Assembly: GCA_031277035.1 (NCBI GenBank)
Contig: JAISLY010000060.1
Span: 21,012 to 85,011 of the forward strand
DNA: 64,000 nucleotides
Source: Coriobacteriales bacterium
GTDB lineage: Bacteria; Actinomycetota; Coriobacteriia; Coriobacteriales; UBA8131
Direction of reading: 5' to 3'
The position numbers and the translations under genes are program-made. Every line of letters starts with the position of its first letter. The first letter of the stretch is position 1. The notes beneath the pieces were generated by a model. It saw only the letters and a list, made by a program, of their open reading frames with translations, was not told where the DNA came from and did no database searches. Shown here piece by piece: positions 1 to 16,089 of this stretch.

Positions 1-1416
1 GGTGCCGTTGTTTATCGTGTACGCATCGACCGTATAACCGCCCACCTCGCTGATTGCTATGCGTGTCCCTGCCTGTCTGGGGTCCACGATATGCCGCTCC
101 AACGGACTTTCTTCAGCGCCGGAGAAATCACGATGCAGGCCAAGCACGGGAGTGAGCGTGAAGCTTTGAGACTGGGGGTCAAGGCCCATAATCTCATGGG
201 TTATCGAGGGAACCTGTGTAACGGCCGCTTCCTTAGATGCAGCAAAATCGGCAGCTTCCTGAGTATAGGCGGTCCTCGTATACAGGACTCCCGCGTTATC
301 CTTCTCATCGGTAATCAGGAAGTCACTCATACTGAGAGAGCCCGCCGTGCCATCGACAACGGCTACCGTGCCAAAGGGGCCGACGGAGAGCTTGTCGAGC
401 CCAAGCTCGGAAGTGCCCTCAGAAGTCGTAAAGGTATAGACGCCCGGCTCGGCCACCCGGTCCAGGGCCGCCGTCGTGCTTTTATCCACACTGAGATTGA
501 ACGCTCCCTCTACCGCGGCCTCGCGCATCGTGTCGCCTCCGTCGGCAACCCAAAGGCCAGCAGGCAGTGTAATCTTGAGATCGAACGTGTCCGGCAGCGC
601 CACACCAAGAGTCTGATGGAACATCACCGTGATGGTGCGCTCGTCGATGTAGTAGGGGTCGCGCTCAAAGATTCCATTGGTGCCGGACTGCCCCACGATA
701 TTCTGCTCGTCCACGGTGCACTCGATGGCCGGCGGCAGGAGGCTCTGCAGGTCGTTCCATGCGGGCAGCCTCTTATCCGCCCAGTCGCCATGAATCGTCT
801 CTGCGCTGATGGCCTCGTCATAACGGATGGTAAAGAAGGTGTTGATAAAGTTGTCGTCTATCGCAAGCGCATCAAGCGTGATGCTGCCGCCGTCGAAGGA
901 AAGCGTCTGCCCAACAGGGGCGTTGCCCTCCTCCAAAGCGTCCTGCATGGCCACGGAATAGGTGGGCGTATTCGCGTCGCTCAGATCGCCTGCGGCCTGC
1001 GTCGCGTTTCCCAGACCGCCAAAGAAACTGAGTTCGCCCGTACCCATCTTCACGAGCAGGCCGCCCACGGCATAGGCCGAAGGAACCCCCACAACAAGCA
1101 CGATTGCCGCGACCAGCGCGACGGCGAACCTGCGCGGCATACGACGCGCGGGGCGCTCGGCGGCGGGGCGTGCGGCGGCGGGGCGTGCGGCGGCGGGGCG
1201 TGCGGCGGCGGGGCGTGCGGCGGGGCGTGCGGCGGGGCGCTCGGTGGCGGGGCGTGCGGCGGGGCGCTCGGTGGCGGGGCGCTCAAGCCCCAGCTTGGCA
1301 AAGGTCTGCTCGGTAAGTGCCTCGGCGTCAAAGGCCACGGGTTCAAGCTCTGCCAACTCGCTCATGTCAAACACCCTTGGTGTCGGTGTGTCGTTTCTCA
1401 TGGTGTCGTCTCTCAT
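1..1416 (-). CDS. Anti-sigma factor-like membrane protein (DUF4179-like), runs off the left edge of the window
   Basis: Not in the ORF track; read by hand. AAGGAG RBS then ATG at 1416 (MRDDTMRNDTPTPRVFDMSEL...). An RPAAA repeat region is followed by a single TM helix (RRFAVALVAAIVLVVGVPSAYA) and a large extracytoplasmic region. The frame stays open to position 1 and lies directly downstream of an ECF sigma gene. Confidence 0.75.
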   Translation of the reverse strand, partial: MRDDTMRNDTPTPRVFDMSELAELEPVAFDAEALTEQTFAKLGLERPATERPAARPATERPAARPAARPAAARPAAARPAAARPAAERPARRMPRRFAVALVAAIVLVVGVPSAYAVGGLLVKMGTGELSFFGGLGNATQAAGDLSDANTPTYSVAMQDALEEGNAPVGQTLSFDGGSITLDALAIDDNFINTFFTIRYDEAISAETIHGDWADKRLPAWNDLQSLLPPAIECTVDEQNIVGQSGTNGIFERDPYYIDERTITVMFHQTLGVALPDTFDLKITLPAGLWVADGGDTMREAAVEGAFNLSVDKSTTAALDRVAEPGVYTFTTSEGTSELGLDKLSVGPFGTVAVVDGTAGSLSMSDFLITDEKDNAGVLYTRTAYTQEAADFAASKEAAVTQVPSITHEIMGLDPQSQSFTLTPVLGLHRDFSGAEESPLERHIVDPRQAGTRIAISEVGGYTVDAYTINNGT

Positions 1417-1466
1417 GGTGTACTCCTTGTCGATAAAGATACGTGCGGCAAACGTTCCTGCCCGGA

Positions 1467-10476: not shown

Positions 10477-12156
10477 ATGAAAGCATTTTCGCGCCGTCGC
10501 TTTATGGAATTTGCCAGCGTGGGTGCCCTGGGAGCAGCCCTGGCCCCGCTCCTCTCCGCCTGCCAGTCATCTACATCGGCAGACGGCACGGGCGGCACGG
10601 GCAGCACGGGCACGGACGACGCTGCGGGTGGCACCGGCGGTGGCGCCGGTGACAAAGGCCAGGTCATCATCGCAATGGGGACGGGCAATGAGCCGGCGGC
10701 CGGCTTTGACCCCTTCTTCGGTTGGGGGGCAAGCGAGCACAGCCACGAGCCCCTGATTCAGAGCACGCTCATCGCGACCACGGTCGACATGGGTTTTGTC
10801 AATGACCTTGCGACCGACTACACCGTAAGCGATGACGGACTGCTTGCAAGCTTTACCATTCGCGACGACGTGAAATTCACCGACGGCGAGCCCCTGACCG
10901 CACGCGACGTGGCCTACACGCTTAACGGCATCAGGGCATCGGAGGGCTCTGAGATTGACCTGAGCATGATTCGTGAGGTGAGCGCCCCCAGCGCAACCAC
11001 CGTCGAGATACACCTGGAGCGCCCCTACAACGCGCTGCTCTACACCCTGGCGGTCATCGGCATCGTGCCTGAGCACGCGCACGGCGCAGACTACGGCTCC
11101 AGTCCCATCGGCAGTGGGCGCTATGTGCTTGAGCAGTGGGACAGGGGGCAGCAGGTCATCTTTGCCGCCAATCCCGACTATTATGGTACGCCACCCAGGA
11201 TGCAGCGCGTCATCATCGTGTTTATGGAGGAAGACGCCGCACTGGCAGCCGCGCGTGCCGGGCAGGTGGACGTGGCGGCAACCTCAGCGGTCTACAGCAG
11301 CCAGGCGATTGAGGGCTATGAGATACTGGCCTGCAAGTCGGTGGACAGCCGCGGCATCTCACTGCCGACCCCGCCTCCCGGCAACACCACGGGCGAGGGA
11401 GCCGAACAAGTGCCGGCCGGCAACGCCGTGACCAGCGACATCGCTATCCGCCGCGCGCTTAATTACGCCGTCGACCGCGACCTTCTCGTACAGAATGTGC
11501 TCAATGGCTATGGCACCGTCGCCTTTGGCGTCTCGGACGGGATGCCCTGGTCTTCGCCGGATATGCAGGTGGCAGGCAGCATCAACGAGGCGCAGCGCAT
11601 CCTTGAGGAGGGCGGCTGGATTGCAGGAGCAGACGGAATTGTGGAGAAGACTGGCACTAAAGCGAGCTTTGAACTGTGCTATCCTTCAAACGACAGCGTG
11701 CGCCAGTCGCTCGCCAACGAGTTTGCCAACCAGGTGCGCGCGGCAGGAATCGAGGTCATTCCCGTGGGTCTTGGCTGGGACGACCTCTATCCGCGAGCCT
11801 ATACCGACCCCATCCTGTGGGGCTGGGGCTCCAACTCCCCCGCCGAGCTGTATAGCCTCTACCACTCGCAGGGCAGTGGCAACTTTCCGCTCTACAAAAA
11901 CGCGACCATAGATGCCTACCTTGAGGAAGCCCTCACAACGACGCCCATCGAGGAGAGTTTTTCCCTGTGGCAGAAGGCCCAGTGGGACGGCGCCGAAGGT
12001 GTTGCCCCGCAGGGCGCGGCGACCTGGGTGTGGTTTGCCAACATCGACCACCTGTACTTCAAACGCACAGGTCTTGTTGTGGCGGCGCAGAAGCTTCATC
12101 CCCACGGGCATGGCTGGGCGGTTGCCAACAACGTTGACCAGTGGAGCTGGCAGTAA
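10477..12156 (+). CDS. Nickel/peptide ABC transporter substrate-binding lipoprotein (SBP family 5)
   Basis: Tat-like SRRRF signal plus LSAC lipobox; FTDGEPLTARDV and IGSGRY motifs; C-terminal HPHGHGW. Confidence 0.9.
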   Translation: MKAFSRRRFMEFASVGALGAALAPLLSACQSSTSADGTGGTGSTGTDDAAGGTGGGAGDKGQVIIAMGTGNEPAAGFDPFFGWGASEHSHEPLIQSTLIATTVDMGFVNDLATDYTVSDDGLLASFTIRDDVKFTDGEPLTARDVAYTLNGIRASEGSEIDLSMIREVSAPSATTVEIHLERPYNALLYTLAVIGIVPEHAHGADYGSSPIGSGRYVLEQWDRGQQVIFAANPDYYGTPPRMQRVIIVFMEEDAALAAARAGQVDVAATSAVYSSQAIEGYEILACKSVDSRGISLPTPPPGNTTGEGAEQVPAGNAVTSDIAIRRALNYAVDRDLLVQNVLNGYGTVAFGVSDGMPWSSPDMQVAGSINEAQRILEEGGWIAGADGIVEKTGTKASFELCYPSNDSVRQSLANEFANQVRAAGIEVIPVGLGWDDLYPRAYTDPILWGWGSNSPAELYSLYHSQGSGNFPLYKNATIDAYLEEALTTTPIEESFSLWQKAQWDGAEGVAPQGAATWVWFANIDHLYFKRTGLVVAAQKLHPHGHGWAVANNVDQWSWQ

Positions 12157-12257: not shown

Positions 12258-13280
12258 ATGCGGTTTTTCGCAGGTCAACTGTTCAAGTTCATCATGCTCA
12301 TGGTCGCCGTGAGCATGGTGTCTTTTGCCCTCGTAAGCCTCTCGCCCACAGACCCGGTGCAGATGAACGTCGGGCAGGTCGCCTATCTCAACATGAGCGA
12401 GGCAAAGCGTGCTCAGCTGGCGGAGTACTGGGGCGTGAACACGCCGCTTTGGGAGCGGTACGCCCACTGGGCGAGCGCGGCCCTGCACGGGGATTTGGGA
12501 ACATCGCTGCGCTATAACGCGCCGGTTGTGCAGGTCATCGCTACACGCTTTGTCAACTCGGCCGCGTTGATGAGCGTCGCCTGGCTGACGAGCGGCATCT
12601 TTGGCCTGCTTCTCGGCATCCTTGCCGCCGTGCGCCGTGGCGGCTGGCTCGATCGTGCCGTCAAAGCCTACTGTTTCCTGCTTGCCTCGGTGCCCACCTT
12701 CTGGCTTGCGCTGCTCGTTCTCATCGTCTTCTCCGTCTGGCTTGGCATCTTTCCCCTGGGCTTCAGCGTCCCCATCGGCGTAGCCCCCGCCGACGTGACC
12801 CTCGCAGACACGCTTCACCACCTCATGCTCCCCGCGCTCACCCTGAGTGTTGTGGGCGTCGCCAACATCGCGCTGCACACACGCGAGAAGACCATCGACG
12901 TCCTTGAGAGCGACTACGTGCGCTTTGCCCGCACGCGCGGCGAGTCCACCGCCACCATCATCTGGCGCCACGGCCTGCGCAACCTCGCGCTGCCGGCGCT
13001 CACACTGCAATTCGCATCCATCAGCGAGATTTTCGGCGGCTCGGTCCTTGTCGAGCAGGTCTTCTCCTATCCGGGCCTCGGCCAGGCGGCGGTCACGGCC
13101 GGCCTTGGTGGCGACGCCGCGCTGCTCGTCGGCATCGCGCTTATCAGCGCCGCGACGGTCTTTGGCGGCAACCTGATTGCAAACCTGCTCTATCGTCTCA
13201 TCGACCCCCGTATGCGCCCCGCCTCCCGCCGCCCCGCCCTCAATCTGATGCGGAGAAAGACGGGTGCCTCCCATGAGTAG
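12258..13280 (+). CDS. ABC transporter permease (NikB/DppB-like)
   Basis: GDLGTSL, YVRFARTRG (EAA loop), VEQVFSYPGLG, and IDPR. Confidence 0.92.
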   Translation: MRFFAGQLFKFIMLMVAVSMVSFALVSLSPTDPVQMNVGQVAYLNMSEAKRAQLAEYWGVNTPLWERYAHWASAALHGDLGTSLRYNAPVVQVIATRFVNSAALMSVAWLTSGIFGLLLGILAAVRRGGWLDRAVKAYCFLLASVPTFWLALLVLIVFSVWLGIFPLGFSVPIGVAPADVTLADTLHHLMLPALTLSVVGVANIALHTREKTIDVLESDYVRFARTRGESTATIIWRHGLRNLALPALTLQFASISEIFGGSVLVEQVFSYPGLGQAAVTAGLGGDAALLVGIALISAATVFGGNLIANLLYRLIDPRMRPASRRPALNLMRRKTGASHE

Positions 13281-13288
13281 GACACCCA

Positions 13289-13460
13289 GACACAAAGGGG
13301 ACGGTTTCTTTTGTGTTCCCTGAGAGGTGACAAGGCGACACAAAGGGGACGGTCTCTTTTGTGTCGCCCCGAAGCTGGGCAAAAGCAAACAACAGAGTGT
13401 TCTGGGAACACAAAAGAGACCGTCCCCTTTGTGTCGCCCTTTGTGTCGCCCTTTGTGTCG
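13289..13460. mobile_element. REP/REPIN-like palindromic element (GACACAAAGGGGACGGTCTCTTTTGTGT units, 2 forward and 1 inverted)
   Basis: Units at ~13289-13316, 13337-13365 and inverted 13408-13435. A near-identical element lies at 14843-14977. Confidence 0.7.
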
Positions 13461-14360
13461 CCCCTGTCCCCCTCGCAGCCGCTCCTGCACGCTCCTCGCG
13501 CGAGTCGTGCCAACGTTGGCAACCGTCGCCGCACGCTTATGACCTTCATCATCGCGGCGCTGCTGCTCGTCGCCATCGTTGTCACCGGCCGTCTGCTCAC
13601 CGCACCGAGCTCTTTTGAGGTCGGCGGCCTGCCCATCGCAACCGCAACCGACTTCACGGCAAAAAACCTTGAGCCGGGCCTTTCCCACCCCTTTGGCACC
13701 GACTGGATGGGGCGCGACATGCTCGCCCGCACCCTCGCCGGGCTCTCGACGAGCGTACTCGTCGGCCTGTTTGCAGCCGGAGCCTCGGCGCTGCTCGCGC
13801 TCATTCTCGGCACCGTCGCCGCCCTCGGCGGCCGTCGCGCCGACGCGCTCATCACCTGGCTTATCGACCTCATGCTCGGCATCCCGCACATCGTGCTGCT
13901 CATCCTCATCTCCTTTGCCATCGGCAAAGGCTTCTGGGGAGTGGCCATCGGCGTAGCGCTCACGCACTGGCCCAGCCTCACGCGCGTCATCCGCGCCGAG
14001 ATACTTCAGTGCCGCGAGTCGGTCTTTGTCGCCCAGGCGCGCAAGCTCGGTGCCGGACCCTTTACCATCGCCCGCAAACACCTGTTCCCGCACGTTTTTC
14101 CGCAGTTCCTCGTCGGGCTCGTGCTGCTGTTCCCTCACGCCATCCTGCATGAGGCATCCATCACCTTCCTCGGCTTTGGCCTGCCGCCCGAGCAGCCCGC
14201 CATCGGCATCATCCTGAGCGAGTCCATGACCTATCTCAGTGCCGGTTTCTGGTGGCTTGCGCTGTTCCCGGGCATCGCGCTCATCGCCACGGTGCTGCTG
14301 TTCGACCGCGCCGGCTCCAATCTGCGCCGCCTCATCGACCCCCATCGTTCGCAGGAATAA
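13311..14360 (+). CDS. ABC transporter permease (NikC/DppC-like); true start uncertain because of the palindromic insertion
   Basis: HPFGTDWMGRDMLAR, EASITFLGFG, and WWLALFPG. The coupled ATG at 13273 is out of frame. Confidence 0.82.
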   Translation: MCSLRGDKATQRGRSLLCRPEAGQKQTTECSGNTKETVPFVSPFVSPFVSPLSPSQPLLHAPRASRANVGNRRRTLMTFIIAALLLVAIVVTGRLLTAPSSFEVGGLPIATATDFTAKNLEPGLSHPFGTDWMGRDMLARTLAGLSTSVLVGLFAAGASALLALILGTVAALGGRRADALITWLIDLMLGIPHIVLLILISFAIGKGFWGVAIGVALTHWPSLTRVIRAEILQCRESVFVAQARKLGAGPFTIARKHLFPHVFPQFLVGLVLLFPHAILHEASITFLGFGLPPEQPAIGIILSESMTYLSAGFWWLALFPGIALIATVLLFDRAGSNLRRLIDPHRSQE

Positions 14361-14374
14361 GGGAGAGGGACGCC

Positions 14375-15505
14375 GTGGTACCGCATGCGCACGAACACAT
14401 CGACCACTCCGTTGAGCAGACGCATCACCACCATGCTCACGCGCAGACCTCCCATCACGTCGACGGACATCATCTGCTTCAGGTTGAGGGATTGAGCATC
14501 AGCTTCACGATGTACGAGTCCGCCGAGCCGCGTTTCTTCAGGGCACGGCGTATGCCGGTGGAGGTCATCAGCGACCTGCACATCGGCGTGCATGCAGGTG
14601 AGCTGGTCGCCATCGTTGGCGCGTCCGGCTCAGGCAAAACGCTGCTCGCCGACGCAATCATGGGCATCTTTGAGCCAAATGCCACGGTGCGCGGACGCAT
14701 CTGGTTCAATGGTGTGGAGCAAAACGCCGCCTCCCTCGCAGCGCTTGCCGGCAACGGCATCTCGCTCGTGCCTCAAAGCGTGAACCACCTCGACCCGCTC
14801 ATGAAGGTCGGGCGTCAGATACTGGGGCATGCGACACAAGGTGCGACACAAGGGGGACGGTCTCTTTTGTGTTCCCCCAAAACCGGGCGAAAGCAAACAA
14901 CAGAGTGTTTTGGGAACACAAAAGAGACCGTCCCCCTTGTGTCTGGGAACACAAAAGAGACCGTCCCCCTTGTGTCGCACCCGCAGCCGTCCCGCGCCGA
15001 GCGTCTCGCTGAGCTGTTCAAGCACTACGATCTGCCGCCAGAAGTTGCGGACAAATACCCCCATGAGCTCTCCGGCGGTATGGCGCGCCGCGTCCTGCTC
15101 TGCTGCGCACTGATGGACGACCCCCAGGTCATCATAGCCGATGAGCCAACCCCGGGGCTCGACCTTGAGCTTGCCAGGCGCGCCCTTGACGACTTTCGCG
15201 AGTTTGCCGACAGCGGCAGAGGCGTGCTACTCATCACCCATGACATCGAACTCGCCCTTCGCGTTGCCGATCGCGTGGCGGTGTTTGCCGAGGGCACCGT
15301 CATCGAAGAGACGGCCGTTGCAAACTTCGCCTCCCCCGACACTCTGGAGCATCCCTTCACGCGTGCCCTCTGGCATGCCCTTCCCGAACATGACTTTCAG
15401 GTTCCCGATGACGCCACAGATGCCGCGACGGCGACGGCTGCCGACACCACCTCCACCCCCATTGCCAGCGACACACAATCTGAGAAGAACGGCGAGCCAT
15501 GTTAG
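14375..15505 (+). CDS. ABC transporter ATP-binding protein (NikD/DppD-like) with His-rich N-terminus and in-frame palindromic insertion
   Basis: GASGSGKT, LSGGMARR, IIADEPT, and LITHD. GTG start follows GGAGAGGG. Confidence 0.88.
   Translation: MVPHAHEHIDHSVEQTHHHHAHAQTSHHVDGHHLLQVEGLSISFTMYESAEPRFFRARRMPVEVISDLHIGVHAGELVAIVGASGSGKTLLADAIMGIFEPNATVRGRIWFNGVEQNAASLAALAGNGISLVPQSVNHLDPLMKVGRQILGHATQGATQGGRSLLCSPKTGRKQTTECFGNTKETVPLVSGNTKETVPLVSHPQPSRAERLAELFKHYDLPPEVADKYPHELSGGMARRVLLCCALMDDPQVIIADEPTPGLDLELARRALDDFREFADSGRGVLLITHDIELALRVADRVAVFAEGTVIEETAVANFASPDTLEHPFTRALWHALPEHDFQVPDDATDAATATAADTTSTPIASDTQSEKNGEPC
14843..14977. mobile_element. REP/REPIN-like palindromic element inside the ATPase ORF
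   Basis: GACACAAGGGGGACGGTCTCTTTTGTGTTCCC, a spacer, then two inverted GGGAACACAAAAGAGACCGTCCCCCTTGTGTC copies. The reading frame is preserved. Confidence 0.75.
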
Positions 15506-16089
15506 AGGCCCGCGACCTTCACTTTGCCTACCCGGGTCAGGCCGAGCTGTTCGGCGGACTTACGTTTTCTGCAAAGCCGCAGGAGCGTGTGGCGCTCGCC
15601 GCCCCTTCGGGCGCGGGCAAGTCCACCCTCTGCAAACTGCTTGCCGGCTACCTCACCCCGCAAAGCGGCGCCATACTCATTGACGGCAAGCCGCTGCCAA
15701 ACAGAGGCGTCTGCCCTGTACAACTCGTCTGGCAGCACCCCGAACAGGCCGTCGATTCTCATATGCGTATGCAGGCCATACTGGACGAAGGCGGTACCGT
15801 CACGCCACAACTGCGCGAAGAGTTGGGGATACGCGACGAGTGGCTTGTGCGCCACCCCCACGAACTGAGCGGTGGTGAGCTGCAACGCTTCTGCATCGCC
15901 CGCGCACTGGCCGCCAATCCGCGCTATCTCATAGCCGATGAGATCAGCACCATGCTCGACGCGGTGACCCAGGCTCACGTCTGGCAGATGCTGCTTCGCG
16001 CCTGCGACGCGCGCGGCATCGGCCTCATATTCGTCTCGCACTCCCCCGCCCTCACCCGCCGCCTCGCCACCCGGGTCATTGAGCTGTAA
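15499..16089 (+). CDS. ABC transporter ATP-binding protein (NikE/DppF-like)
   Basis: APSGAGKST, LSGGELQR, LIADE, and FVSH. Confidence 0.9.
   Translation: MLEARDLHFAYPGQAELFGGLTFSAKPQERVALAAPSGAGKSTLCKLLAGYLTPQSGAILIDGKPLPNRGVCPVQLVWQHPEQAVDSHMRMQAILDEGGTVTPQLREELGIRDEWLVRHPHELSGGELQRFCIARALAANPRYLIADEISTMLDAVTQAHVWQMLLRACDARGIGLIFVSHSPALTRRLATRVIEL

What the first reader, a model, noticed from the sequence alone, without database searches (positions are those of the whole stretch)
13289..14977. REP/REPIN-like palindromic element translated in frame within transporter ORFs
Seen: a ~100-135-bp element made of inverted GACACAA(A/G)GGGGACGGTCTCTTTTGTGT units around a conserved AAAGCAAACAACAGAGTGTT spacer occurs twice. 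In the ATPase it lies between the Q-loop and the ABC signature and encodes ATQGGRSLLCSPKTGRKQTTECFGNTKETVPLVS. The permease frame gives the homologous ATQRGRSLLCRPEAGQKQTTECSGNTKETVPFVS, so orientation and frame are the same. Each unit is itself a hairpin, and arms are locally re-duplicated. Established: REPINs are non-autonomous elements mobilised by RAYT tyrosine transposases and are normally intergenic; in-frame coding insertion is known mainly for Rickettsia palindromic elements. Inference: a possibly undescribed protein-inserting palindromic element family in this lineage.
Basis: partly seen in the sequence, partly recalled or inferred. Interest (0 to 1): 0.75.

Follow-up and report, generated by a model that had tools for sequence, protein, structure and literature searches.

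The report
Mobile palindromes translated inside transporter genes
Two copies of a small hairpin-forming mobile DNA repeat sit inside a nutrient-transporter operon of an uncultured gut Coriobacteriales bacterium, one of them read in frame as a floppy 49-residue loop of an otherwise intact ATPase; the event is real, but this kind of event has been described before.

Summary
The 28-nt unit occurs 6 times in the window and 0 times in shuffles. The two long-form copies are 91% alike and fold into very stable hairpins.

A RAYT-like Y1 gene lies on the same contig, about 33 kb upstream, flanked by the same units in inverted orientation. The genome holds 12 loci of this family and about 31 loci of a sister family with its own second RAYT.

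The ATPase copy is truly in frame. It sits in a segment that is 60 aa long in 75 of 114 homologs and 105 aa here, and AlphaFold models it as a disordered loop in a confident fold.

The permease copy lies in the N-terminal region. The ancestral start codon is now out of frame, so its translation is plausible but unproven.

Four further in-frame copies sit in an acyl-CoA synthetase, ThrC, TrpF and TrpC.

In-frame REPs are already in print (PMC3733652). This scan also reported the TrpF/TrpC copies of this same genome earlier (e1-3623654). My verdict is a new member of a known kind, of moderate interest.

The parts
10477..12156 (+). Substrate-binding protein gene of the operon (SBP_bac_5)
   Evidence: Pfam PF00496, E 3.6e-68
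12258..13280 (+). Permease 1 gene, ending with stop TAG at 13278-13280
   Evidence: Pfam BPD_transp_1, E 3.6e-42; ORF
13273..13323 (+). Ancestral coupled start codon of permease 2 (ATG 13273, overlapping the permease 1 stop). It now reads a 16-codon dead end that stops at TGA 13321-13323, out of frame with the permease 2 body.
   Evidence: Orthologs in G018, G010 and G011 start permease 2 at an ATG overlapping the permease 1 tail. Frames read from the sequence.
13289..13316 (+). Solitary family-A unit with one mismatch. It carries an in-frame TTG at 13311 that has AAGGGGA 9 nt upstream.
13335..13438 (+). Copy 1, long-form REPIN-like element. Arms are at 13337-13364 (+) and 13408-13435 (-), separated by a 43-nt spacer.
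   Evidence: Arms 100% complementary over 31 nt (I7); ssDNA fold -42 kcal/mol, z -9.7
13425..13463 (+). Three tandem 12-nt copies of the element's right end (CCCTTTGTGTCG), read as PFVS x3. They contain in-frame GTG codons at 13431, 13443 and 13455.
   Evidence: (D4)
13311..14360 (+). Permease 2 open frame. Possible starts are TTG 13311 or 13359, GTG 13431, 13443 or 13455, and ATG 13539. The conserved N-terminal motif LLHAPRA..NRRRT lies upstream of ATG 13539.
   Evidence: Pfam BPD_transp_1, E 1.2e-25; ortholog comparison; start list
14375..15505 (+). ATPase 1 gene (376 aa) with Walker A, Q-loop, signature, Walker B and H-switch motifs intact and a His-rich N-terminus
   Evidence: Pfam ABC_tran, E 1.1e-24, matched across residues 66-259; invariant columns in alignment A1; AF2 model
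14831..14981 (+). Copy 2, in frame in ATPase 1 and encoding ATQGATQGGRSLLCSPKTGRKQTTECFGNTKETVPLVSGNTKETVPLVS. It has a left arm at 14845-14872, right arms at 14916-14943 and 14949-14976, and a 12-nt left-end duplication starting at 14831.
   Evidence: Outer arms 37 nt, 100% complementary (I2); fold -55.9 kcal/mol, z -11.3; no stop in any of 6 frames; pLDDT below 50 for residues 154-198
15499..16089 (+). ATPase 2 gene of the operon, with no element
   Evidence: Pfam ABC_tran, E 7.4e-23

Best explanation
The two repeats are REPIN-like, non-autonomous palindromic elements: two inverted 28-nt hairpin units around a spacer. They belong to a small family whose likely mobilising enzyme is a RAYT-like Y1 (HUH) transposase. 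That gene lies outside the window on the same contig (G000:C37:594-1343) and is flanked by the same units. Shown: the repeat family, its hairpins, the flanked transposase gene, the open reading frames and the empty-site orthologs. Inferred: the enzyme binds one strand of the imperfect hairpin through the conserved (A/G)GGGACG(G/T) motif and copies the element to new sites, mostly just downstream of genes. Insertions into genes survive only where the added length keeps the frame and the extra peptide lands in a tolerant place. This family has no stop codon in nearly any frame, so one insertion in three is silent enough to persist. In ATPase 1 the element adds about 49 residues to a surface loop of the helical subdomain between the Q-loop and the signature motif. 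In permease 2 it occupies the cytoplasmic N-terminal tail and has displaced the original start codon. Translation there must restart at a codon inside or after the element, possibly the TTG that each unit carries 9 nt after its AAGGGGA.
For: (1) Repeat family. There are 23 units with up to 4 mismatches at 12 loci in the genome. The shared core ACAA[AG][AG]GGGACG[GT] gives 94 hits at 42 loci against 1 hit in the reversed genome.
(2) Transposase. PF01797 matches at 50.9 and 49.6 bits in the genome search (49.2 and 47.6 on the proteins). NCBIfam REP_Tyr_transpos scores 77.2 bits (E 1.1e-21, cut-off 80) for the C37 gene. HUH, the catalytic Tyr-x-x-N-P and a C-terminal HTH are invariant in 14 of 14 relatives. 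The gene is flanked by units at C37:555-582 (+) and 1403-1456 (-).
(3) A second RAYT on C2 is flanked by units of the sister family. In 11 of 14 RAYT loci of the bacterial family the gene is flanked by an exact inverted repeat. In 9 of the 14 that repeat carries a GGGACG core set in different stems.
(4) 6 of the 12 family-A loci lie within 36 kb of the RAYT on C37.
(5) In-frame copies sit in Pfam-confirmed genes: AMP-binding synthetase, ThrC, PRAI, IGPS and the ATPase. All 5 intragenic copies found keep the frame.
(6) ATPase site. The segment is 60 aa in 75 of 114 homologs and 105 aa here. Orthologs of G004, G009, G020, G027 and G006 lack the insert. In the AF2 model 178 residues have pLDDT of 90 or more, while residues 154-198 fall below 50.
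(7) Most other copies abut the 3' ends of ORFs, as REPs do, and one supplies the TGA stop of a TetR-like gene.
Against: No GTAG tag, which is essential for the studied RAYTs (passages of PMC8266576). The NCBIfam score is 2.8 bits under the curated cut-off. No target-site duplication or clean element ends could be defined, because the arms are partly re-duplicated. G019 holds 18 matches to the unit pattern, but no RAYT was found there with this query; that genome is 82% complete in 300 contigs. No close strain exists in the databases to show a recent empty site: the best alignment identity is 74% and BLASTP identity is at most 68% apart from two hits covering only 34% of the query. Expression and translation are untested. 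A frame-preserving insertion has a prior of 1 in 3, so the ATPase copy alone would not prove selection. The census of gene-disrupting copies relied on ORF heuristics, not on a gene caller.
Confidence: 0.78

Rival explanations
1. The host genes are dead or dying. The insertions inactivated the ATPase and cut off the permease start, and the open frames are chance survivals in a recently disrupted operon.
For: Family A has no stops in 6 of 6 frames for copy 2 and in 4 of 6 for copy 1, so an open frame needs only a length divisible by 3. The ancestral permease 2 start is out of frame. A 37-bp perfect stem inside an mRNA could hinder expression. No RNA data could be obtained.
Against: All ATPase motifs and 100+ invariant columns are kept, and the fold is confident outside the insert. 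All 5 intragenic copies found in the genome are in frame, including those in ThrC, TrpF and TrpC. By chance that would be about (1/3)^5. The other four operon genes are intact.
Confidence: 0.1
2. The repeats are real but are not moved by the neighbouring Y1 enzyme. They spread as ordinary MITEs through a DDE transposase acting in trans, or by hairpin-driven slippage, recombination and gene conversion. On this view the RAYT-like gene is merely another target.
For: There is no GTAG guide motif. The arms show many local partial duplications typical of slippage. G019 carries the units without a detected RAYT. An unrelated palindromic repeat family occupies the same ATPase loop in G018.
Against: There are two RAYT paralogs with two matching repeat families in one genome. 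Flanking inverted units recur at 11 of 14 RAYT loci across genera, each with its own stem; 9 of them carry the GGGACG core. Family A clusters around its RAYT. No DDE transposase was looked for, so this rival is not excluded.
Confidence: 0.12
3. The operon copies have been co-opted. The hairpins act as RNA processing or stabilising sites that set subunit ratios, like the classical REP between malE and malF (recalled, not checked here). The unit's AAGGGGA-N9-TTG would also supply the new start of permease 2.
For: The hairpins are very stable. Both TTG candidates have AAGGGGA 9 nt upstream, whereas ATG 13539 has no Shine-Dalgarno-like motif. The same junction carries genome-specific repeats in G008 and G010, there in frame with the ancestral start.
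Against: There are no expression data. Tolerance of neutral insertions explains recurrence at the same sites equally well. Orthologs in G018 and G011 work without any element at the junction.
Confidence: 0.15
4. Assembly artefact: a repeat was threaded wrongly into the contig of this metagenome-assembled genome.
For: The genome is a 62-contig, 72.7%-complete assembly. Many repeat copies sit at contig ends. A 1-nt error in a repeat could explain the frame break at the permease start.
Against: Both flanks of each copy belong to the same gene, in order and in frame. A mis-join would link different loci. Five other genes show the same kind of insert.
Confidence: 0.03

Closest known systems
REPIN/REP-RAYT systems ('REPtrons') of Pseudomonas, E. 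coli, Stenotrophomonas and Marinomonas (PMC3116915, PMC2817692 and PMC3333891 seen only in search listings; passages of PMC8266576 read)
   Same: Short imperfect palindromes are paired in inverted orientation around a spacer. A largely single-copy Y1 HUH transposase gene is flanked by the same units, with one enzyme per repeat family. Copies lie mostly just downstream of genes. They cluster near the transposase gene, as noted for Marinomonas in PMC8266576.
   Different: There is no GTAG tetranucleotide. The conserved motif is (A/G)GGGACG(G/T), lying inside the unit near the hairpin tip. Each unit is a 12-bp hairpin with G-T pairs on one strand only. The enzyme is about 250 aa with a C-terminal HTH. 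The host is an Actinomycetota (Coriobacteriales) gut bacterium. No studied case from that phylum turned up in the passages I read or in my searches.
TIRYT genes and 'TIRtrons' with moderately abundant TIR repeat families (Di Nocera, De Gregorio and Rocco 2013, PMC3733652; abstract and passages read)
   Same: These are RAYT-like genes flanked by long inverted repeats that lack GTAG. Some of the repeats are self-complementary. Repeat families are of tens of copies, organised as dimers or clusters. A G-rich shared motif is present.
   Different: Their motif is GGGGWSAS, whereas here it is GGGGACGG or GGGGACGT, which fits 7 of 8 positions. That paper reports intragenic copies for GTAG and CGTC REPs. 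In the passages I read it does not report them for TIR families. The word 'Actinobacteria' does not occur in its text.
Intragenic REPs and Rickettsia palindromic elements (RPE) inserted in frame (PMC3733652 passages; the original RPE papers are known to me only through that text)
   Same: Palindromic repeats or dimers sit in frame in genes for known, apparently functional proteins. They add 20-50 residues, often at termini or loops, in housekeeping enzymes.
   Different: The sequence family and lineage differ. Here a cognate transposase gene is present, whereas CGTC REPs and RPEs have none known. Here the same loops and junctions in orthologs of other genera carry other, genome-specific repeats.
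Bacterial MITEs that alter coding sequences (Coxiella burnetii MITEs, PMC5896051; review PMC10969869; search listing and first lines of abstracts only)
   Same: Small non-autonomous inverted-repeat elements that can become part of proteins.
   Different: Those are thought to derive from DDE-type insertion sequences. I did not read these papers beyond the listing.

Membership tests
REP/REPIN-RAYT system (REPtron) | Y1 HUH transposase of the RAYT type (HUH motif, catalytic Tyr in Y-x-x-N-P) | tested here: met
   PF01797 at 50.9 bits in the genome search and 49.2 bits on the protein. H-x-H and Y-x-x-N-P are invariant in 14 of 14 relatives.
REP/REPIN-RAYT system (REPtron) | Passes NCBIfam equivalog NF047646 (REP-associated tyrosine transposase) | tested here: inconclusive
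   77.2 bits against a cut-off of 80 for the C37 gene; 57.2 bits for the C2 gene
REP/REPIN-RAYT system (REPtron) | Transposase gene flanked by the repeat units in inverted orientation | tested here: met
   Units at C37:555-582 (+) and 1403-1456 (-) flank the gene at 594-1343. The same holds for the C2 gene.
REP/REPIN-RAYT system (REPtron) | Many dispersed copies of a short imperfect palindrome, mostly extragenic and near 3' ends of genes | tested here: met
   94 core hits at 42 loci against 1 in the control. ORF ends abut most loci. The copy number, tens of copies, is low for classical REPs.
REP/REPIN-RAYT system (REPtron) | Two inverted units plus spacer forming a long hairpin (REPIN) | tested here: met
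REP/REPIN-RAYT system (REPtron) | Conserved GTAG tetranucleotide next to the palindrome | tested here: not met
   No GTAG adjoins any of the units displayed. The conserved motif is GGGACG, inside the unit.
REP/REPIN-RAYT system (REPtron) | Enzyme binds and cleaves single-stranded unit DNA; elements transpose | not testable with these tools
   No runs were listed for read-level polymorphism.
TIRYT/TIRtron (PMC3733652) | RAYT-like gene flanked by long inverted repeats lacking GTAG, some self-complementary | tested here: met
TIRYT/TIRtron (PMC3733652) | Shared GGGGWSAS motif in the flanking repeats (applies to a subset of TIRtrons) | tested here: not met
   GGGGACGG or GGGGACGT has G where the consensus has A at position 7 (motif taken from the paper).
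TIRYT/TIRtron (PMC3733652) | Flanking repeats belong to a dispersed family organised in dimers or clusters | tested here: met
CGTC-tagged REPs (PMC3733652) | Unpaired terminal CGTC, 8-9 bp stem, 4-5 nt loop, short CCA-like tail, no linked transposase | tested here: not met
   CGTC occurs only as the complement of GACG at the hairpin tip. The stem is 12 bp with a 3-nt loop. A transposase gene is linked. Definition taken.
Rickettsia palindromic elements | In-frame residence in genes for functional proteins | tested here: met
   ATPase, synthetase, ThrC, TrpF and TrpC. Function is inferred from intact motifs only.
Rickettsia palindromic elements | Sequence relationship to RPE families | not tested
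   No RPE sequence was available from a tool.

The most novel reading that the evidence does not exclude
In this uncultured Coriobacteriales family, RAYT-driven GGGACG-core palindromes and other small palindromic repeats may be repeatedly built into proteins at the same permissive loops and gene junctions in different genera. They would then decay into lineage-specific linker sequence. That would make them a standing source of loop and tail expansion in housekeeping proteins of a free-living gut bacterium, and in this operon the source of a new ribosome-binding site and start codon for permease 2.
Probability: 0.3. Interest if true: 0.6.

Novelty: new member of a known kind. Interest (0 to 1): 0.4.

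Why it matters
The finding extends REP/RAYT-type elements, studied almost only in Proteobacteria, to gut Coriobacteriales, with a different recognition motif (GGGACG instead of GTAG). It also gives a compact natural test set: two enzymes, two repeat families and at least five in-frame insertions in one 1.8-Mb genome. That set could be used to study how Y1 transposases choose substrates and how proteins absorb 30-50 extra residues. For annotation, it warns that odd loops in otherwise conserved proteins of these bacteria can be mobile DNA, and that start codons next to such repeats may be mis-called. It opens no new category.

Tried and rejected
- Sequencing runs for expression or empty-site alleles: none was listed for window:13150-15150.
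- Closer relatives of the ATPase, to date the insertion. In 5.8 billion proteins BLASTP identity was at most 68%, apart from two hits covering only 34% of the query. Alignment identity was at most 74%. The same-genus genome G001 lacks the operon as far as searched, with best hit E 7.7e-19.
- PDB sequence search with the transposase: only a chance hit at E 0.86.
- Rfam: only sub-threshold hits to long-hairpin microRNA models, all far below gathering scores. I read these as hairpin shape, not homology.
- Earlier-findings look-up by sequence returned an unrelated phage RNA.
- Reading ATG 13539 as the permease start, which would make copy 1 purely intergenic, was my first view. I dropped it as the sole reading because the conserved N-terminal motif lies upstream of it.
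- Inserts at the ATPase loop in G008 and G010 are unique in their genomes, so they cannot be called repeat-derived. The G011 insert was not tested.
- GC-by-codon-position gene calling proved ambiguous at 60% GC. The census of intergenic copies is therefore approximate, and split genes were not ruled out with family searches.
Only ssDNA folds are reported.
Full report
**What is in the sequence.** The 28-nt unit GACACAARGGGGACGGTCTCTTTTGTGT matches six times in the window (13289, 13337, 14845 on +; 13408, 14916, 14949 on -) and never in 100 shuffles. Two long forms (13335-13435 and 14843-14943) are 91% identical over 101 nt. They share a spacer found nowhere else in the 1.82-Mb assembly. The ends are locally re-duplicated. 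A 12-nt unit is repeated three times at 13425-13463 and twice at 14831-14854. Copy 2 has a second right arm (arms at 14915-14946 and 14948-14979, starts 33 nt apart).

As single-stranded DNA the unit's top strand forms a 12-bp hairpin with G-T pairs (-6.1 kcal/mol; 2 of 200 shuffles fold as well). The bottom strand keeps only 7 pairs (-3.6). The whole elements fold at -42 and -55.9 kcal/mol, z -9.7 and -11.3. Rfam gives only sub-threshold hits to long-hairpin microRNA models.

**Host genes.** The region is a five-gene peptide/nickel-type ABC operon:
- binding protein, 10477-12156;
- permease 1, 12258-13280;
- permease 2, ending at 14360;
- ATPase 1, 14375-15505;
- ATPase 2, 15499-16089.

Homolog names place the organism in Coriobacteriales.

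**Genome census and the transposase.** The window is G000:C37:21012-85011. Units with up to 4 mismatches occur 23 times at 12 loci. Elsewhere the usual form is a doublet with a 6-nt spacer.

A sister family of about 110 bp (GTTGACAAAGGGGACGGTTCC...) is more abundant. The shared core ACAA[AG][AG]GGGACG[GT] gives 94 hits at 42 loci against 1 in the reversed genome.

PF01797 finds two Y1 transposase genes. One is at C37:594-1343, about 33 kb upstream of the ATPase copy and outside the window. It is flanked by family-A units at 555-582 (+) and 1403-1456 (-). The other, on C2, is flanked by sister-family units. The C37 protein scores 77.2 bits on NCBIfam REP_Tyr_transpos, whose cut-off is 80. Six of the 12 family-A loci lie in the first 36 kb of C37, next to this gene.

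**Relatives.**
- RAYT homologs occur in 14 of 34 genomes of the bacterial family.
- HUH, Y-x-x-N-P and a C-terminal HTH are invariant in 14 of 14 aligned.
- At 11 of 14 loci the gene is flanked by an exact inverted repeat. At 9 of the 14 that repeat carries a GGGACG core set in a different stem.
- The exact family-A unit pattern, with up to 2 mismatches, is found in G000 (19 hits), G019 (18), G014 (2) and G008 (1). It is absent from the other 30 of 34 genomes, including same-genus G001.
- In an order-level sample of 151 genomes, the core CAARGGGGACGGT is amplified only within the window's own family: 49, 195, 23, 8, 6 and 4 hits in six genomes. Every genome of the 12 other families has 0-2 hits, and controls give 0-1.

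**In-frame copies.** Open frames spanning whole elements with long coding flanks were confirmed by Pfam:
- an AMP-binding synthetase (C15, family A);
- threonine synthase (C21);
- PRAI/TrpF (C2);
- IGPS/TrpC (C2).

With the ATPase, all 5 intragenic copies found keep the frame. Another copy supplies the TGA stop of a TetR-like gene. Most others abut ORF 3' ends. That census used ORF heuristics, so broken genes are not excluded. Copy 2 has no stop in any of 6 frames and copy 1 has none in 4 of 6.

**The ATPase site.** From LVPQS to LSGG the segment is 60 aa in 75 of 114 homologs with both motifs. It is 105 aa here, and only 5 exceed 75 aa. Among 10 orthologous loci, five are short (132-162 nt from LMK.. 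to ..SGG) and five are long (246-288 nt). The AlphaFold model (46-sequence alignment, mean pLDDT 76.3) has 178 residues at 90 or more. The insert (residues 154-198) is below 50 with no secondary structure, lying between helices 145-149 and 207-217. Walker A, Q-loop, signature, Walker B and H-switch residues are invariant columns.

**The permease site.** In G018, G010 and G011, permease 2 starts at an ATG overlapping the permease 1 tail. A conserved LLHAPRA..NRRRT motif precedes the first membrane helix. In the window this motif lies upstream of ATG 13539. The ancestral ATG (13273) is out of frame and stops at 13321-13323. The in-frame candidate starts are TTG 13311 and 13359 (each with AAGGGGA 9 nt upstream), GTG 13431, 13443 and 13455, and ATG 13539, which has no such motif. 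Translation of copy 1 is therefore plausible but unproven. I put it near even odds.

**Recurrence at the same sites in other genera.**
- The permease junction carries other repeats in G008 (50 further matches in its genome) and G010 (7 further matches). In both the repeat is in frame with the ancestral start.
- The junction is empty in G018 and G011.
- At the ATPase loop, the G018 insert begins with an unrelated palindromic repeat that has 8 further matches in its genome.
- The G008 and G010 inserts at that loop are unique in their genomes. G011 was not tested.
- ATPase 2 of G010 carries an in-frame GGGACG-core doublet.

Tolerance of these sites explains the pattern most simply. Target preference is not excluded.

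**Literature.** PMC3733652 (abstract and passages) describes three relevant things. First, REPs inside genes of several species, with dimers encoding 20-30 residues. Second, RPEs as the classic in-frame case. Third, RAYT-like 'TIRYT' genes flanked by GTAG-less inverted repeats, some sharing GGGGWSAS. The word 'Actinobacteria' does not occur in its text. PMC8266576 (passages) shows GTAG is central to the studied enzymes. Searches combining REP, tyrosine transposase and Coriobacteri* listed no paper holding the last term among the 12 shown. I did not open its supplements, where its intragenic list sits.

**Earlier scan note.** Finding e1-3623654 reported the TrpF/TrpC copies of this genome and reached the same class. 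I re-derived those copies independently.

**Verdict.** This is a real, RAYT-associated, REPIN-like family in a new lineage, with a non-GTAG motif and several in-frame copies. It is a new member of a known kind. Mobility, expression and the permease start remain open.

Noticed in passing
window 14375-14480 (ATPase 1, residues 1-35): The ATPase has a His-rich N-terminal extension (HAHEHIDHSVEQTHHHHAHAQTSHHVDGHH). Seven of its His positions are invariant across 46 homologs (H11, H17, H18, H20, H22, H28, H33). This suggests a metal-binding tail and a nickel/cobalt-type substrate.
   Followed up: no
G000:C36:7083-8657 and G000:C57:17530-18566 (outside the window): Pairs of sister-family elements bracket single ORFs: a 486-aa ORF on C36 and a 280-aa, low-GC3 ORF on C57. 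The arrangement looks composite-transposon-like.
   Followed up: no
L008 (G009), ATPase 2, locus minus strand 2103-2261: A 34-bp direct repeat (encoding TGIQEVARTRAN twice) brackets a 38-nt AT-rich insert, in frame, in the second ATPase of the orthologous operon.
   Followed up: no
L005 (G018), ATPase 1 N-terminal region: An extra G/A/Q-rich segment of about 45 residues lies between FTLYES and FLRARQ, and is absent from the other orthologs.
   Followed up: no
G000, flanks of sister-family elements, e.g. C36:12235-12316, C40:6334-6602, C57:23414-23496: The element ends are extended by tandem ~32-34-nt repeats, each carrying GTGACAAAGGGGACGGG, symmetrically on both sides. The origin of these arrays is unexplained.
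   Followed up: partly
G014 (same bacterial family, another genus): This genome has 195 exact matches to the core CAARGGGGACGGT, four times as many as in G000. It would be the richest genome for studying this repeat superfamily.
   Followed up: no
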